Shown piece by piece: positions 3,987 to 12,988 of a stretch of 64,000 nucleotides of DNA. Position 1 is the stretch's first letter. Every line of letters begins with the position of its first letter. The translations under genes and the position numbers were made by a program. The notes under the pieces were generated by a model, which had not been told where the DNA came from, ran no database searches, and saw only the letters and a list, made by a program, of their open reading frames with translations. Origin of the DNA: a virus (taxonomy: Duplodnaviria; Caudoviricetes); IMG/VR virus record IMGVR_UViG_3300010167_000010, positions 32,001 to 96,000 of that record; one strand, 5' to 3'.

Positions 3987-4349
3987 ATGAAAAAATGTTG
4001 TAAATGCAAAAACAAACAAGAAGATAAACAACCAGATTACTATTATTATGATAGAAATCCCAGAGTAACCTCTATGAGACGATTTATAAAAGAACAATAT
4101 GCATTATGGTTAGCAGAACAAAGATCCAAACCACAACAGAAAAAAGATGATGGAGAATGGAATTATAGATTTAAATTTGGAGACGTATCACCAAAACAAG
4201 CTTGGCAAACTTATTCAAAATATATTGAAGACAATGCTTGTAGATATCCAGTTTGGCCAAATTTTCATGGTCGAATGACTTCTGTTTCATCATTAGATAC
4301 TTCAAATATTAGAACTGTACAAAAATTTGGCACAACTTGGAGAGTATAA
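3987..4349 (+). CDS. Hypothetical protein
   Basis: ORF preceded by the ACTAATTA motif. Confidence 0.55.
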   Translation: MKKCCKCKNKQEDKQPDYYYYDRNPRVTSMRRFIKEQYALWLAEQRSKPQQKKDDGEWNYRFKFGDVSPKQAWQTYSKYIEDNACRYPVWPNFHGRMTSVSSLDTSNIRTVQKFGTTWRV

Positions 4350-4662: not shown

Positions 4663-5298
4663 ATGATAGGTATTTATTTAATTACAAATTTAACTAATAA
4701 AAAACGATATGTTGGTAAATCTAAAAATATTGAAAATAGATGGAAACAACATAAAAAATTAAATGATGGTTATAGACCGTCTTACTTACAAAGTGCCTTT
4801 TTAAAAGAAGGGATAGAAAATTTTTCTTTTGAAGTTTGGGAAGAATGTATTTTAGAAAAATTAAATGAAAGAGAAAAATTTTGGATTAAAGAATTAGAAA
4901 CGAGAAATCCCGAATTTGGATATAATTTAACAAAGGGTGGTGATGGGGGAGATACTTTTTATATTCAATCTGAAGAAAAACAAAATGAATTAAGAAAAAT
5001 TTTTAGTGAAAATAGTAAAAAATATAATACTATTAAATATCTTCAAACAGATAGAGCTGAACAATCAAGAAAACCTCATAGAAAAAAATTAGGCCAAAAT
5101 GCTAAAGGTAAAACATGGCAATGGAATGAAGAAAAAAGAAAAAATTATATACCTTCAAATAAAGGAAAATTAATGAATAATGAACAAAAAGAAAAACAAA
5201 AACAATATCATTGGTTTAATAATGGGATTATTCAAATAATGTCAATAAAATGTCCGGAAAATTTTAATTCAGGAATGTTAAAAAGAAAAACTAACTAA
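4663..5298 (+). CDS. GIY-YIG homing endonuclease (Seg-like)
   Basis: GIYLITN..YVGKS..NRWKQH, ERE..WI, GYN motifs; basic C-terminal DNA-binding region. Confidence 0.9.
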   Translation: MIGIYLITNLTNKKRYVGKSKNIENRWKQHKKLNDGYRPSYLQSAFLKEGIENFSFEVWEECILEKLNEREKFWIKELETRNPEFGYNLTKGGDGGDTFYIQSEEKQNELRKIFSENSKKYNTIKYLQTDRAEQSRKPHRKKLGQNAKGKTWQWNEEKRKNYIPSNKGKLMNNEQKEKQKQYHWFNNGIIQIMSIKCPENFNSGMLKRKTN

Positions 5299-6601: not shown

Positions 6602-6674
6602 CAGAGTGTAGACCAAATAGATGGCCGCCTGTTTTGGAGACAGGAGATTGGAGATGCGAGCGCTCCCGCTCTGA
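6602..6674 (+). tRNA. tRNA-Pro(TGG)
   Basis: CAGAGTG/CGCTCTG, CCTGT-TTTGGAG-ACAGG; atypical T loop. Confidence 0.8.
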
Positions 6675-10733: not shown

Positions 10734-12212
10734 ATGATTAATGCTATCCAAAAAGAGATAAAGAATCAAGAAAAAAACGAGTTAATGCGATCAGAAAATG
10801 GTGCATTTATGTTTAAAACTTCGGGGCAAAATTTGCTCGATATGAATTTCCGTGTAGCGAGCTATCGCGGAGCTTCTGAAAATAAAATATTAAGTGATTG
10901 GAAAAAGGCTTTTGCTGATGATCCAGAACTTGCTGTAAAGTGGTTGTTTTATGTGAGAGATGTGCGAGAAGGTTTAGGTGAAAGAGATACTTTCAGAAAA
11001 ATTGCAAATTATCTTTCAGGTACTGAAGATAGATTCGTAAAATTAATTAATCAAATACCAGAGTTTGGTAGATGGGATGACCTTTTTTCAGTTTATGGTT
11101 CTAATAAGAAAGCTGTATGTGGGCTCATATCTGCACAACTTAATTTAGATAAGAAAAATATGAAAGAAAATAAGTCAATTTCTCTTTTAGCTAAGTGGCT
11201 TCCATCTGTAAATACATCTTCAAAAGGAAAAAGAAATCTTGCAAGGGAGATAGCAAAAGAATTATGTTTAACAGAAAGAAATTATAGAAAGACTTTAGCA
11301 GAACTTAGAGATTATCTTGACGTAATCGAAGTAAAGACATCTGGCGGAAAGTGGAATGAGATTAATTATGAAGCAGTTCCATCACAAGCGAATTTAAAAT
11401 ATCGTACAGCATTTTTCAAGCATGACGAAGAAAGACGAAGAGAATTTTTATCAAAACTTGAAAAAGGTGAAACAAAGATAAATGCTGGAACTACATTTCC
11501 ACATGATATTGTATCACGTGTAGCTAGATTAAGTAAAACAGATGCAGCATTAGAAGCAATGTGGAAAGCTTTACCATCATACGGTGTTGAAAACACTTTA
11601 GTTGTTGCAGATGGTTCAGGCTCAATGACATCTAGTATCCCAGGTACAAATTCTTCAGCTTTAGATGTTGCAAATGCGCTCGCTATTTATTGTGCTGAAC
11701 ATAATTCTGGTGAGTTCAGAGATAAGTACATCACTTTTTCAGAGAATCCACGTTTTGTCGATTTTAGCAAGTGCACAACTTTACTTCAAAAGATTCAGAC
11801 AGCTATGTCTCATAACGAAGTAGCAAATACAGATATTTATAGAGTGTTCAAACTCGTATTAAATACAGCTGTAAAGAATAATATGAAGCAAGAAGATTTT
11901 GTAAAGAATATTCTTGTTATTAGTGATATGGAGTTCGATCAAGGTACAAGTAATGCTTCTGAAAGTTTGTTTACTAAAATAGCAAAAGAATATGCAGACG
12001 CTGGATATGATTTACCACGTTTAATTTTCTGGAATGTAAATAGCCGAACAGGCGCAGTTCCAGTAAATCAGAACAAGTTAGGAGTAGCTCTGGTATCAGG
12101 TTTTAGTGTACACATCGCAAAGATGGTTATGAGTGGACAACTTTGCCCATTTGAAGCATTGAAAGAAGTCTTAATGGGTGAACGATATAAGGAGATTACT
12201 TTAGGGGGTTAA
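10734..12212 (+). CDS. DUF2828-family TROVE/Ro60-like protein with C-terminal vWA domain
   Basis: RDVREGLGER, GRWDDL, LAKWLPS helical region; MIDAS VADGSGSM, NTD, ISDMEFD, IFWNV, VSGFS. Confidence 0.85.
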   Translation: MINAIQKEIKNQEKNELMRSENGAFMFKTSGQNLLDMNFRVASYRGASENKILSDWKKAFADDPELAVKWLFYVRDVREGLGERDTFRKIANYLSGTEDRFVKLINQIPEFGRWDDLFSVYGSNKKAVCGLISAQLNLDKKNMKENKSISLLAKWLPSVNTSSKGKRNLAREIAKELCLTERNYRKTLAELRDYLDVIEVKTSGGKWNEINYEAVPSQANLKYRTAFFKHDEERRREFLSKLEKGETKINAGTTFPHDIVSRVARLSKTDAALEAMWKALPSYGVENTLVVADGSGSMTSSIPGTNSSALDVANALAIYCAEHNSGEFRDKYITFSENPRFVDFSKCTTLLQKIQTAMSHNEVANTDIYRVFKLVLNTAVKNNMKQEDFVKNILVISDMEFDQGTSNASESLFTKIAKEYADAGYDLPRLIFWNVNSRTGAVPVNQNKLGVALVSGFSVHIAKMVMSGQLCPFEALKEVLMGERYKEITLGG

Positions 12213-12227
12213 TATAACTAAATAAAT

Positions 12228-12247
12228 ACGGGAAAATATTTTCCCGT
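12228..12247 (+). terminator. Hairpin after the DUF2828 gene (terminator or processing signal)
   Basis: ACGGGAAAA-TA-TTTTCCCGT palindrome followed by TTATT. Confidence 0.4.
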
Positions 12248-12256
12248 TTATTCACT

Positions 12257-12400
12257 AAGGCGGGTTCTGCAAACCATACAAAAATCAGGATGCTGCCAAA
12301 CAAACAGTCGTCCAAATTTTGGGCGCAAAAGTAATTGTTTGGCTAGACTTTTTTGGAGTTTTTAAAGTCAATAAACTTTATAAATGACCAAGACCGTCTT
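12257..12400 (+). ncRNA. CWGCAA array unit 1
   Basis: AAGGCGG/CCGTCTT closing stem, CTGCAA at 12267, internal GCCAAACAA/TTGTTTGGC helix. Confidence 0.7.
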
Positions 12401-12444
12401 GTTTATTAAAATAAGCCGCTGACGGGCGGTGAAATATATTATGT

Positions 12445-12539
12445 TAGGTGCGTTAACAGCAAAAACTACTTAAAAATCAATTTGGTAGATTTGTCTTTTG
12501 GAGGTTTAGACGTTAAAGAAAATTGCCACCACGCATCTA
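12445..12539 (+). ncRNA. CWGCAA array unit 2
   Basis: TAGGTGCGT/ACGCATCTA stem, CAGCAA at 12457. Confidence 0.75.
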
Positions 12540-12557
12540 GTTTTTATTTTATTATTC

Positions 12558-12610
12558 CGATGCATACAGCAATTCAAACATACACTTAAAATGTAATTAA
12601 AAGTGCATCG
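12558..12610 (+). ncRNA. CWGCAA array unit 3 (UAA anticodon-like loop)
   Basis: CGATGCA/TGCATCG stem, CAGCAA at 12567, TACA-CTTAAAA-TGTA. Confidence 0.75.
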
Positions 12611-12658
12611 TGTTTATTTTAGATAATGATAAACGACGGTTTATCATAAATTATAATT

Positions 12659-12760
12659 TAGGCGCTAACTGCAAATTAAAAAAGGTTAATAAAATTTCTT
12701 AAACAATTTTTAGTTGGTTCGATCCCGACAACGTAGAAATACGTGATTCTAACGCGTCTA
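12659..12760 (+). ncRNA. CWGCAA array unit 4 (contains a T arm)
   Basis: TAGGCGC/GCGTCTA stem, CTGCAA at 12669, GTTGG-TTCGATC-CCGAC. Confidence 0.75.
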
Positions 12761-12812
12761 GTTTTTATTTAATATGAAGGCCTTCTTAATCATTGTGTGG
12801 CCAACATATAAA

Positions 12813-12879
12813 AAGGTTCAAGCAGCAATTTAAACTTATAAATTATCTGTTAAATGATTATTGTTAAAATACGAATCTT
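12813..12879 (+). ncRNA. CWGCAA array unit 5 (GUU anticodon-like loop)
   Basis: AAGGTTC/GAATCTT stem, CAGCAA at 12823, AATTAT-CTGTTAA-ATGATT. Confidence 0.7.
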
Positions 12880-12880
12880 G

Positions 12881-12905
12881 GCTCCCTTCGGGGAGCATTT
12901 TTTTT
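12881..12905 (+). terminator. Rho-independent terminator closing the array
   Basis: GCTCCC-TTCG-GGGAGC followed by a T tract. Confidence 0.9.
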
Positions 12906-12988
12906 CTCATGTTAATATATAAATAATAATCAATAGTTTGATTCTTCTTACAAAATAGACAGCTTTAAATTACATAATAAGGAGAATT

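What the first reader, a model, noticed from the sequence alone, without database searches (positions are those of the whole stretch)
12558..12879. Array cargo looks like tRNA anticodon-loop and T-arm mimics (possible decoys for anticodon nucleases)
Seen: unit 5 carries AATTAT-CTGTTAA-ATGATT, whose 7-nt loop is identical to the anticodon loop of this phage's tRNA-Asn. Unit 3 carries TACA-CTTAAAA-TGTA, a canonical Leu(UAA)-type loop. Unit 4 has GGTTA, a stem with loop TCTTAAAC, then a perfect T arm GTTGG-TTCGATC-CCGAC. Units 1 and 2 share a hairpin with TTTGGAG in the loop, the same 7-mer as the tRNA-Pro anticodon loop at 6602-6674. Established: host defences such as PrrC, RloC, PARIS AriB and VapC toxins cleave tRNA anticodon loops. 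Inference: these non-chargeable mimics could titrate such nucleases, or recruit tRNA-modifying or repair enzymes.
Basis: partly seen in the sequence, partly recalled or inferred. Interest (0 to 1): 0.8.

Follow-up and report, generated by a model that had tools for sequence, protein, structure and literature searches.

The report
Phage Y-like RNAs displaying tRNA parts
A 329-kb phage encodes, next to a Ro60-shaped RNA-binding protein, five small RNAs that share a conserved "handle" and hold out pieces that imitate tRNA (a T arm, anticodon-type hairpins); this trait recurs in many phages and may bait host enzymes that read or cut tRNAs, though that role is untested.

Summary
Units 3 and 5 carry hairpins whose 7-nt loops (CTTAAAA, CTGTTAA) match the anticodon loops of this phage's own tRNA-Leu(UAA) and tRNA-Asn. 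Unit 4 has a canonical T arm. The TTTGGAG loops of units 1 and 2 are 11-12 nt, not anticodon-like, and the "tRNA-Pro" at 6602-6674 is not called by tRNA finders.

The five units belong to a large RNA family absent from Rfam: a covarying closing helix followed by C(A/U)GCAA, sitting beside genes for a DUF2828 protein. I show here that this protein folds like Ro60. Across 148 non-redundant units from about 85 phage loci, C-U-NNN-A-A loops occur 25 times against 1.0 in shuffles. The most enriched cargo 7-mers are the T-loop GGTTCGA and the loops CTGCAAA, CTGTTAA and CTTTTAA.

In this phage's close relatives the signal is weaker. The T arm and the last-unit hairpin are conserved; the unit 3 loop is not.

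tRNA-part mimicry is supported. The anticodon-nuclease decoy role remains a plausible, untested inference. This scan has already noted the same family, including anticodon-loop cargo, in at least 14 other genomes. I found no description of it in Rfam or in the papers I searched.

The parts
10734..12212 (+). Gene for a Ro60-like ring protein (DUF2828 + DUF7788/vWA), the presumed protein partner of the RNAs
   Evidence: Pfam DUF7788 8e-48, DUF2828 2e-35, weak vWA_Ro60. AlphaFold2 model has pLDDT 82.5. The top 13 PDB matches are all Ro60/TROVE, TM 0.44-0.58. 711 phage records hold homologues.
12208..12216 (+). GTTAATATA promoter-like motif just upstream of the array; a second copy at 12911-12919 lies after it
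   Evidence: 12 copies in the window, all on the + strand, against 2.7 expected. They sit before gene starts. That it is a promoter is inference.
12256..12401 (+). Unit 1: handle TAAGGCGG / CCGTCTTG with CTGCAA; long cargo including a hairpin that presents UUUGGAG (12346-12369)
   Evidence: (z -4.3). Orthologue in L211. The stems flanking TTTGGAG(G) covary among the window, L003, L211 and L213.
12415..12430 (+). Inter-unit hairpin with conserved GACGGGCGGUGA, role unknown
   Evidence: Present in the window, L003, L004, L211 and in variant form in L213. Fold.
12445..12541 (+). Unit 2: handle TAGGTGCGT / ACGCATCTA with CAGCAA; cargo has a D-loop-like AAUUUGGUA (12476-12490) and a UUUGGAGG hairpin (12493-12511)
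12558..12610 (+). Unit 3: 53-nt short unit; handle CGATGCAT / GTGCATCG, CAGCAA; hairpin TACA-CTTAAAA-TGTA (12581-12595)
   Evidence: Family model R1 gives 33 bits, E 2.5e-5. The loop equals that of the phage tRNA-Leu(UAA). It is not conserved in orthologues.
12658..12761 (+). Unit 4: tRNA-like unit; handle TTAGGCGC / GCGTCTAG, CTGCAA; GGUUA (12684-12688), AU hairpin with loop UCUUAAAC (12691-12710), T arm (12713-12729), GNRA hairpin (12732-12743)
   Evidence: The MFE structure holds all three inner hairpins. The module is conserved in L003, L004 and L211 with covarying T stems and GNRA loops GAAA/GCAA/GUAA. It is not called as a tRNA.
12774..12807 (+). Inter-unit hairpin before the last unit, loop with UGAUCAUUGU-like sequence
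   Evidence: Conserved as ATGGCC...GGCCAT or ATGGGT...ACCCAT in L003, L211 and L213. Fold.
12813..12879 (+). Unit 5: 67-nt short unit; handle AAGGTTC / GAATCTT, CAGCAA; hairpin AATTAT-CTGTTAA-ATGATT (12841-12859)
   Evidence: Best R1 hit in the window, 37.2 bits, E 2.6e-6. The loop equals that of tRNA-Asn. The hairpin is kept in L213 (CCGTTAA, with a compensatory stem change) and L211 (8-nt CTGGTTAA).
12881..12905 (+). Intrinsic terminator closing the array
   Evidence: GCTCCC-TTCG-GGGAGC followed by a U run. The same position is a terminator in L003, L004, L211 and L213.

Best explanation
The gap 12213-12988 is a separate transcription unit. It encodes five small RNAs of an uncatalogued family that travels with phage DUF2828 proteins, which fold like Ro60.

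Each RNA has a 'handle': a 7-9-bp closing helix, then C(A/U)GCAA 1-4 nt inside the 5' strand, then a G and, in this lineage, a U-rich 3' tail. The handle most likely docks on the ring protein, as Y RNAs dock on Ro60.

The variable interior ('cargo') displays imitation tRNA parts:
- Unit 4 carries a D-loop GG, an anticodon-arm-like hairpin and a T arm in normal tRNA order.
- Units 3 and 5 carry bare anticodon-arm-like hairpins of Leu(UAA) and Asn(GUU) type.
- Units 1 and 2 carry other loops (UUUGGAGG, UUGGUA).

The likely purpose is to present tRNA look-alikes on a protein platform, so that proteins which recognise tRNA elbows or anticodon loops are captured or diverted. Host anticodon nucleases are the leading candidate; modification or repair enzymes are the alternative.

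Shown: the RNA family, its link to the gene, the Ro60-like fold, and the enrichment and conservation of tRNA-type loops.
Inferred: binding to the protein, expression and processing, and any bait or decoy action.
For: Family and gene linkage:
- My scanner finds 290 handle units on the gene strand against 91 on the other strand in 703 kb around DUF2828 genes. They cluster just upstream or downstream of the gene.
- They are also present in Listeria phage LMTA-94, the FelixO1-type phage Michonne and locus L005.
- All 7 handle pairs show compensatory changes across 75 units.
- Model R1, built from other phages' units, picks units 5 and 3 as the two best hits in 64 kb.

Protein: the top 13 PDB matches of the fold are all Ro60/TROVE.

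tRNA-type cargo:
- C-U-NNN-A-A loops occur in 25 of 148 units, against 1.0 +/- 1.0 in shuffles and 0 on the reverse complement.
- In unbiased MFE folds, 7-nt loops are the modal class (30 vs 6.0), with C32 at 60% and U33 at 70%.
- The top enriched cargo 7-mers are GGTTCGA, CTGCAAA, CTGTTAA and CTTTTAA.
- 15 units carry canonical T-loop hairpins.

This window:
- Two loops equal the phage's own tRNA loops, p about 0.001.
- The T-arm module is conserved with covariation in four arrays.
- The unit 5 hairpin is kept in L213 with a compensatory change.

Context:
- The phage has an Rnl1-type ligase and two PF09414 ligases.
- Bas63 gp130, a Ro60-like protein encoded upstream of that phage's tRNA genes, counters the ppl defence (PMC11482910).
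- A canonical phage Ro60 binds adjacent Y-like RNAs (PMC12135203).
- YrlA Y RNAs mimic tRNA (PMC4201824).
Against: - There are no expression, binding or cleavage data for any member.
- In this window the anticodon-type hairpins are weak and AU-rich. They are not the MFE choice, and unit 5 does not fold better than shuffles (z -0.9).
- The unit 3 loop is not conserved in L003/L004 orthologues.
- Orthologues of the unit 5 loop have C33 (L213) or an 8-nt loop (L211), which departs from a strict anticodon loop.
- The loose Y-U-NNN-R count in the five close arrays is not enriched (5 vs 3.1).
- Only about a fifth to a third of family units carry an anticodon-type loop, so mimicry is not the whole story.
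- T loops of the close relatives have 8 nt rather than 7.
- The defence that Bas63 gp130 counters (ppl) is described as a putative DNA-degrading system, not an anticodon nuclease.
Confidence: 0.55

Rival explanations
1. Specific decoy model: the anticodon-arm and T-arm mimics, held on the Ro60-like ring, bind or are cut by host anticodon nucleases such as PrrC, RloC, PARIS AriB, retron-linked PtuAB, VapC or colicin-type enzymes. This spares real tRNAs.
For: - The displayed triplets are diverse (Lys, Asn, Cys, Ser, Pro, Ile, Phe, Tyr, Met, Glu, Leu types). That fits many anticodon-specific enemies better than one fixed partner.
- Between related units, the triplet positions differ more (0.155 per site) than the rest of the RNA (0.058).
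- The phage carries an Rnl1-type tRNA-repair ligase.
- A homologous protein is a counter-defence factor (PMC11482910).
- From my own knowledge: isolated anticodon stem-loops are substrates of several anticodon nucleases, and RNA decoys exist in phages (crRNA-repeat mimics, pseudo-ToxI).
Against: - No nuclease, host or cleavage is known for this phage.
- The mimics would lack the modifications some nucleases prefer, unless they are themselves modified.
- C33 and 8-nt variants occur in close relatives.
- The rate comparison rests on few non-independent pairs.
- ppl is not known to cut tRNA.
Confidence: 0.3
2. Tether or adaptor model, as for Rsr-Y RNA-PNPase: the cargo recruits a helper enzyme (PNPase, RNA ligase, a tRNA-modifying or CCA-adding enzyme) to RNAs threaded through the Ro60-like ring. 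The particle would repair, modify or degrade damaged tRNAs rather than act as bait.
For: - Y RNAs tether Ro60 to PNPase, and the phage phiLo Ro60 with its Yrl RNAs assembles with host PNPase (PMC4201824, PMC12135203).
- The genes sit at the edge of tRNA clusters and near RtcB in Listeria phage LMTA-94.
- YrlA is a substrate of tRNA-modifying enzymes (PMC4201824).
Against: - One effector would not need many different anticodon triplets.
- No RtcB is present in this phage, and the ligase genes are far from the array.
Confidence: 0.2
3. In this window the anticodon-like loops of units 3 and 5 are by-products: relics of descent from tRNA genes, or chance in AT-rich sequence. Only the handle, and perhaps the T-arm module, is functional.
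For: - The hairpins are weak and not favoured by MFE.
- The unit 3 loop is not conserved in orthologues.
- The loose loop pattern is not enriched in the close arrays.
- Many family units have other cargo.
Against: - p is about 0.001 for two own-tRNA loops in five units.
- CTGTTAA is among the three most enriched cargo 7-mers family-wide.
- The hairpins sit at the family's standard anticodon-arm position.
- The unit 5 hairpin is kept with a compensatory change in L213.
Confidence: 0.15
4. The units are only punctuation of the tRNA region: terminators or RNase processing sites, each a closing helix plus a U run. They are not stand-alone functional RNAs.
For: - U-rich tails follow units 1-4, and one terminator-like call lies at the 3' end of unit 4.
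- Extra hairpins lie between units.
Against: - The invariant CAGCAA and the gene linkage hold in phages where no U run follows, such as Listeria phage LMTA-94 and Michonne.
- Loops of 30-120 nt are not terminator-like.
- The cargo contains conserved motifs.
Confidence: 0.05

Closest known systems
Ro60/Rsr with Y RNAs: bacterial and phage YrlA/YrlB (Rfam RF02553; Chen et al. 2014, PMC4201824) and Thermus phage phiLo Ro60 with Yrl1/Yrl2 (PMC12135203)
   Same: - A ring protein of Ro60 fold with a vWA domain.
- Small RNAs encoded next to its gene, closed by a terminal helix.
- At least one RNA per locus with a tRNA-like domain containing a T arm.
- Several RNAs per locus.
   Different: - The protein is DUF2828/DUF7788, with no TROVE Pfam hit and no sequence match to solved Ro60.
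- The handle is helix + C(A/U)GCAA, not the Y RNA bulged helix or the CGAA motif.
- RF02553 does not match the array.
- The tRNA-like unit is in normal order (GG, anticodon arm, T arm), not the permuted YrlA order.
- Many units carry only a bare anticodon-type hairpin.
- There are five tandem units.
Class I RNAs of dictyostelid amoebae (Rfam RF01414; Kjellin et al. 2021, PMC7919456)
   Same: - About 60-nt RNAs with a short covarying terminal stem.
- A conserved single-stranded motif directly after the 5' strand. The paper gives its invariant positions as T3, C6, C9, A10, A11, which fits ..T..C..CAA as in cTTACAGCAA.
- A variable interior.
   Different: - Eukaryotic, with no known Ro60-like partner.
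- RF01414 does not match the array at E <= 10.
- No tRNA-like cargo has been described for them.
- The full motif is shown only in a figure I could not read, so the likeness is a lead.
Phage tRNAs that bypass anticodon nucleases (for example T5 tRNA-Lys against PARIS; review PMC11455837) and T4 Rnl1/Pnk repair of PrrC-cut tRNA-Lys
   Same: Phage-encoded RNA answers to attacks on tRNA anticodon loops. This phage also has many tRNAs and an Rnl1-type ligase.
   Different: Those are functional, chargeable tRNAs or repair enzymes. The units here lack an acceptor end, D stem and, mostly, a T arm, and are not called as tRNAs.

Membership tests
CAGCAA-handle RNAs beside DUF2828 genes (uncatalogued family) | Terminal helix whose sequence varies but stays paired | tested here: met
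   Five different helices in the window all pair. All 7 pairs have compensatory changes in 75 units from other phages.
CAGCAA-handle RNAs beside DUF2828 genes (uncatalogued family) | C(A/U)GCAA 1-4 nt after the 5' strand | tested here: met
   CAGCAA in units 2, 3 and 5. The CTGCAA variant in units 1 and 4, also seen in L003 and L004.
CAGCAA-handle RNAs beside DUF2828 genes (uncatalogued family) | Same strand as, and adjacent to, a DUF2828 gene | tested here: met
   The array starts 44 nt after the gene. This is the only array in the 329-kb genome. Family-wide strand bias is 290:91.
CAGCAA-handle RNAs beside DUF2828 genes (uncatalogued family) | Significant match to a covariance model built from other phages' units | tested here: met
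   Unit 5 E 2.6e-6 and unit 3 E 2.5e-5, the two best hits in the window.
YrlA-type Y RNA (RF02553) | Match to the Rfam model | tested here: not met
   No hit in the gap at E <= 10. The whole-genome search hits only near tRNA genes.
YrlA-type Y RNA (RF02553) | Partner protein with a TROVE domain | tested here: inconclusive
   No TROVE Pfam hit and no sequence hit to solved Ro60, but the predicted fold matches Ro60 over its full length.
YrlA-type Y RNA (RF02553) | tRNA-like domain with a T arm | tested here: met
   Unit 4 has GTTGG-TTCGATC-CCGAC with G53:C61 and a UUCGA loop. It is conserved in four arrays. The order is unpermuted, unlike YrlA.
tRNA (RF00005) | Cloverleaf recognised by ARAGORN or the Rfam model | tested here: not met
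   No call in 12213-12988.
Dictyostelid Class I RNA (RF01414) | Match to the Rfam model | tested here: not met
   No hit on the array at E <= 10.
Anticodon-nuclease decoy (functional class) | Is bound or cut by an anticodon nuclease and protects tRNA | not testable with these tools
   Only the sequence mimicry could be tested.

The most novel reading that the evidence does not exclude
Phages keep a library of baits built on one scaffold. A fixed handle docks on a Ro60-like ring, and the three 'anticodon' bases of the displayed hairpin are swapped over evolutionary time to track whichever tRNA-cutting defence the host carries. This would be an RNA-based counter-defence with its own arms-race signature: fast-changing triplet, frozen loop frame.
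Probability: 0.25. Interest if true: 0.85.

Novelty: new variant of a known kind. Interest (0 to 1): 0.6.

Why it matters
Ro60-Y RNA particles are known from animals, bacteria and a few phages, but what their tRNA-like parts do is an open question.

A second, much larger phage branch is seen here: 711 GenBank phage records hold the protein. It has a different handle and bare anticodon hairpins of many specificities. This gives a concrete, testable idea that the tRNA-like part is a bait or adaptor for anticodon-reading proteins.

It would also name the missing RNA partners of a protein already shown to defeat a bacterial defence in phage Bas63. It would add an RNA-mimicry layer to the fight between phages and hosts over tRNAs.

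For this window the value is as one more member, and a weaker one for the anticodon loops, of a family this scan has met repeatedly.

Tried and rejected
- Rfam scans of the gap, of five related loci and of the genome found no family for the units. A below-threshold TarB hit at 12842-12908 (30.6 vs 80 bits) is driven by the terminator.
- blastn of the gap and of 8 kb downstream against GenBank phages found nothing.
- A 14-mer scan for the inter-unit motif CTGACGGGCGGTGA in IMG/VR returned mostly chance hits in GC-rich phages and only the already known relative.
- A profile search of the protein against PDB sequences found nothing. Only the fold search linked it to Ro60.
- RtcB is absent from the phage.
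- The Pro-anticodon reading of TTTGGAG was rejected because the loops are 11-12 nt. I considered that UUUGGAGG mimics a Shine-Dalgarno or a CsrA-type GGA site, and found no start codon at a suitable distance. This is left open.
- MAFFT alignments of the orthologous units were too poor in the cargo for automated covariation counts, so the comparisons of cargo hairpins were made by reading.
- The model R1 cannot score the long units.

Full report
**What is in the sequence.**
The window is part of a 329-kb IMG/VR phage genome with terminal repeats and 29% G+C. A cluster of tRNA genes ends with a 492-aa gene at 10734-12212. A 776-nt gap without ORFs follows.

The gap holds five units: 12256-12401, 12445-12541, 12558-12610, 12658-12761 and 12813-12879. 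Each is closed by a 7-9-bp helix. The helix sequence differs from unit to unit, and C(A/T)GCAA lies 1-4 nt inside the 5' strand. Units 1-4 are followed by G plus a U-rich run. Unit 5 is followed by a clean terminator at 12881-12905.

The motif GTTAATATA lies at 12208 and again at 12911. It occurs 12 times in the window, always on the + strand, against 2.7 expected. So the array looks like its own transcription unit (inference). No other such array exists in the genome.

**Check of the observation.**
All the quoted sequences are there.
- The unit 5 loop CTGTTAA equals the loop of the phage tRNA-Asn.
- The unit 3 loop CTTAAAA equals the loop of the phage tRNA-Leu(UAA), which lies outside the window.
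- Hairpins of at least 4 bp with a 7-nt loop identical to one of the phage's tRNA loops occur at 0.06-0.10 per kb per strand elsewhere in the genome. Two such units among five arose in 5 of 5000 dinucleotide shuffles of the cargo.
- The T arm of unit 4 (GTTGG-TTCGATC-CCGAC) is canonical: G53:C61, a UUCGA loop and one U.G pair. It appears in the minimum-energy fold.

- The TTTGGAG motifs of units 1 and 2 sit in 11-12-nt loops.
- The 'tRNA-Pro' at 6602-6674 is not called by ARAGORN or Rfam.
- The hairpins of units 3 and 5 are not the minimum-energy choice.

**What it is: the protein.**
The upstream gene matches DUF7788 and DUF2828 and, weakly, the Ro60 vWA domain. An AlphaFold2 model built from 18 homologues has pLDDT 82.5. 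Its 13 best PDB matches are all Ro60/TROVE proteins aligned over the full length, including the Ro60 of Thermus phage phiLo. Sequence alone finds no solved relative. Homologues occur in 711 GenBank phage records, some annotated 'Ro-like RNA-binding protein'.

**What it is: the RNA family.**
I fetched the following:
- Four arrays of close relatives: L003 (77% protein identity), L004 (60%), L211 (81%) and L213 (75%).
- 80 more distant IMG/VR loci.
- Three GenBank phages.

A simple scanner (closing helix of at least 7 bp, 0-5 nt gap, then C[AT]GCAA) finds 290 units on the gene strand and 91 on the other strand. The gene-strand units are crowded just before or after the gene. Units are present:
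- upstream of the gene in Listeria phage LMTA-94;
- between the tRNA genes that follow it in the FelixO1-type phage Michonne;
- in locus L005.

In an alignment of 75 short units, CAGCAA is invariant and all seven helix pairs show compensatory changes. A covariance model from these units returns units 5 (E 2.6e-6) and 3 (E 2.5e-5) as the two best hits in the 64-kb window. The model contains no unit from this window. Its consensus at the cargo position reads like an anticodon arm, AcUUUuAAU.

Rfam has no family for these RNAs. tRNA, YrlA (RF02553) and Class I RNA (RF01414) do not match the array.

**Is the cargo really tRNA-like?**

Among 148 non-redundant units:
- 25 have a hairpin of at least 4 bp with a 7-nt loop C-U-NNN-A-A. 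Dinucleotide shuffles give 1.0 +/- 1.0 (maximum 5 of 200 sets). The reverse complement gives none.
- In unbiased minimum-energy folds of 107 short units, the 7-nt loop is the commonest class (30 against 6.0). It has C at the first position in 60% (11% expected), U at the second in 70% (31%), and A at positions six and seven in 67% each.
- A blind k-mer search of cargo puts these 7-mers on top: GGTTCGA, the T loop (10 units against 0.2), CTGCAAA (7 against 0.5), CTGTTAA (6 against 0.6) and CTTTTAA (10 against 2.3).
- Fifteen units have canonical T-loop hairpins.

The displayed triplets are of Lys, Asn, Cys, Ser, Pro, Ile, Phe, Tyr, Met, Glu and Leu type. Between related units, the triplet differs more often (0.155 per site) than the rest of the RNA (0.058). 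Examples are CTTTTAA against CTTGAAA and CTGCAAA against CTGTAAA. These pairs are few and not independent, and the apparent constancy of the loop frame is partly built in by my selection.

**How this window compares.**
The tRNA-like unit 4 is well supported. Three relatives keep the same order: GG(U/A)A, an AU hairpin, UUAG, a hairpin with a UUCGA loop, then a GNRA hairpin.
- The T stems covary: GTTGG/CCGAC, GTGG/CCAC, GTGGA/TCCAC and GTGAG/CTCAC.
- The relatives' T loops have 8 nt.
- The anticodon-position loop is 7 nt only in L004 (CTTTTAA) and L211 (CTTAAAC).

The same GGTTAA-hairpin-T-arm module recurs in distant loci such as L130, L132 and L183.

The unit 5 hairpin is kept in L213 (AATTAT-CCGTTAA-ATAATT). 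A G.U pair becomes A-U there, but C replaces U33. In L211 it is kept with an 8-nt loop. L003 and L004 keep TCTG(G)TTAA in other pairings. The unit 3 loop is not conserved.

Over the 23 units of the five close arrays, C-U-NNN-A-A loops number 3 against 0.24 expected (2 of 1000 shuffles). The looser Y-U-NNN-R pattern is not enriched, 5 against 3.1.

So in this lineage the anticodon mimicry is real but loose. The strong case comes from the family as a whole.

**How it most likely works.**
By analogy with Ro60 and Y RNAs, the handle docks on the ring protein and the cargo is exposed. The precedents are:
- Y RNAs encoded next to the Ro60 gene, at least one per species mimicking tRNA (PMC4201824).
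- Phage phiLo Ro60 binding two adjacent Y-like RNAs and assembling with host PNPase (PMC12135203).

Many different triplets on one scaffold argue for partners that read anticodons. Ser- and Leu-type loops argue against synthetases as the sole targets, since from my own knowledge SerRS and LeuRS do not read the anticodon. That leaves anticodon nucleases or anticodon-modifying enzymes.

The phage has an Rnl1-type ligase and two further RNA-ligase-family genes but no RtcB. So it appears equipped for anticodon-loop damage.

The homologue gp130 of phage Bas63 counters the ppl defence. Its authors guessed that some downstream 'tRNA genes' are its Y RNAs (PMC11482910). The handle-bearing units between the tRNA genes of the related phage Michonne are better candidates.

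All steps beyond sequence, fold and conservation are inference. I put about 0.3 on the decoy role itself.

**Novelty.**
I found no description of the handle family or of its anticodon cargo in Rfam or in the papers searched. The scan's own earlier notes already report the same family, and its anticodon-loop cargo, in at least 14 other genomes, as well as a companion note on this window. I treated those as leads and repeated the tests.

One earlier lead is a likeness to dictyostelid Class I RNAs. It agrees with the invariant positions given in PMC7919456, but the Rfam model does not match here.

I class the finding as a new variant of the Ro60/Y-RNA kind.

Noticed in passing
window 6134, 10303, 10702, 12208, 12911, 27806, 33256, 36647, 39626, 40612, 43120, 54977: GTTAATATA occurs 12 times, all on the + strand (2.7 expected), typically just before gene starts. 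It is probably a phage promoter element.
   Followed up: partly
window 12415-12430; L003 about 4128-4150; L004 about 4866-4885; L211 about 2676-2697: A short hairpin with the conserved sequence GACGGGCGGUGA lies between units in every related array. It has no CAGCAA, and its role is unknown: a processing site or a protein-binding site are possibilities.
   Followed up: partly
window 12774-12807: A hairpin with a 15-19-nt loop containing UGAUCAUUGU-like sequence always precedes the last unit (window, L003, L211, L213). It has no handle motif.
   Followed up: no
window 12346-12369 and 12493-12511; L003 about 4060-4085; L211 about 2418-2440 and 2606-2630: Hairpins with covarying stems present UUUGGAGG(U), a perfect Shine-Dalgarno-like GGAGGU that also contains a GGA, in 9-13-nt loops. 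This could be a mimic of a ribosome-binding site or of a CsrA-type site. It is not anticodon-like.
   Followed up: partly
window 6602-6674: A tRNA-like element with the hairpin CCTGT-TTTGGAG-ACAGG is called by neither ARAGORN nor Rfam. The genome's called tRNA-Pro(UGG) lies elsewhere, at genome 119551-119623, with loop TTTGGGA.
   Followed up: partly
genome 324774-325427, 124726-125187, 226673-227170 (outside the window): One T4 Rnl1-type RNA ligase (PF09511) and two PF09414 ligase-family genes. No RtcB.
   Followed up: partly
L127 (Citrobacter phage Michonne) 4208-5040: Four handle units lie between annotated tRNA genes just after the DUF2828 gene. One encloses a T arm, an acceptor-like stem and a ...GCCA end. 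They are unannotated in the GenBank record.
   Followed up: partly
L003 4161-4221, L004 4584-4635, L211 2705-2763, window 12476-12490: Several cargos are hairpins with the loop A(U)UUGGUA, which reads like a tRNA D loop (A14...G18 G19 U20 A21). This may be a third class of tRNA-part mimic. It does not stand out in the k-mer test.
   Followed up: partly
L211 2120-2293: In the closest relative, a small ORF of about 58 aa is inserted between the DUF2828 gene and the RNA array.
   Followed up: no
genome 27691-27805 (outside the window): A sub-threshold YrlA (RF02553) match, 27 bits, E 1.5e-4, overlaps the 3' part of tRNA-Ser and the sequence after it. This may be only T-arm similarity.
   Followed up: no
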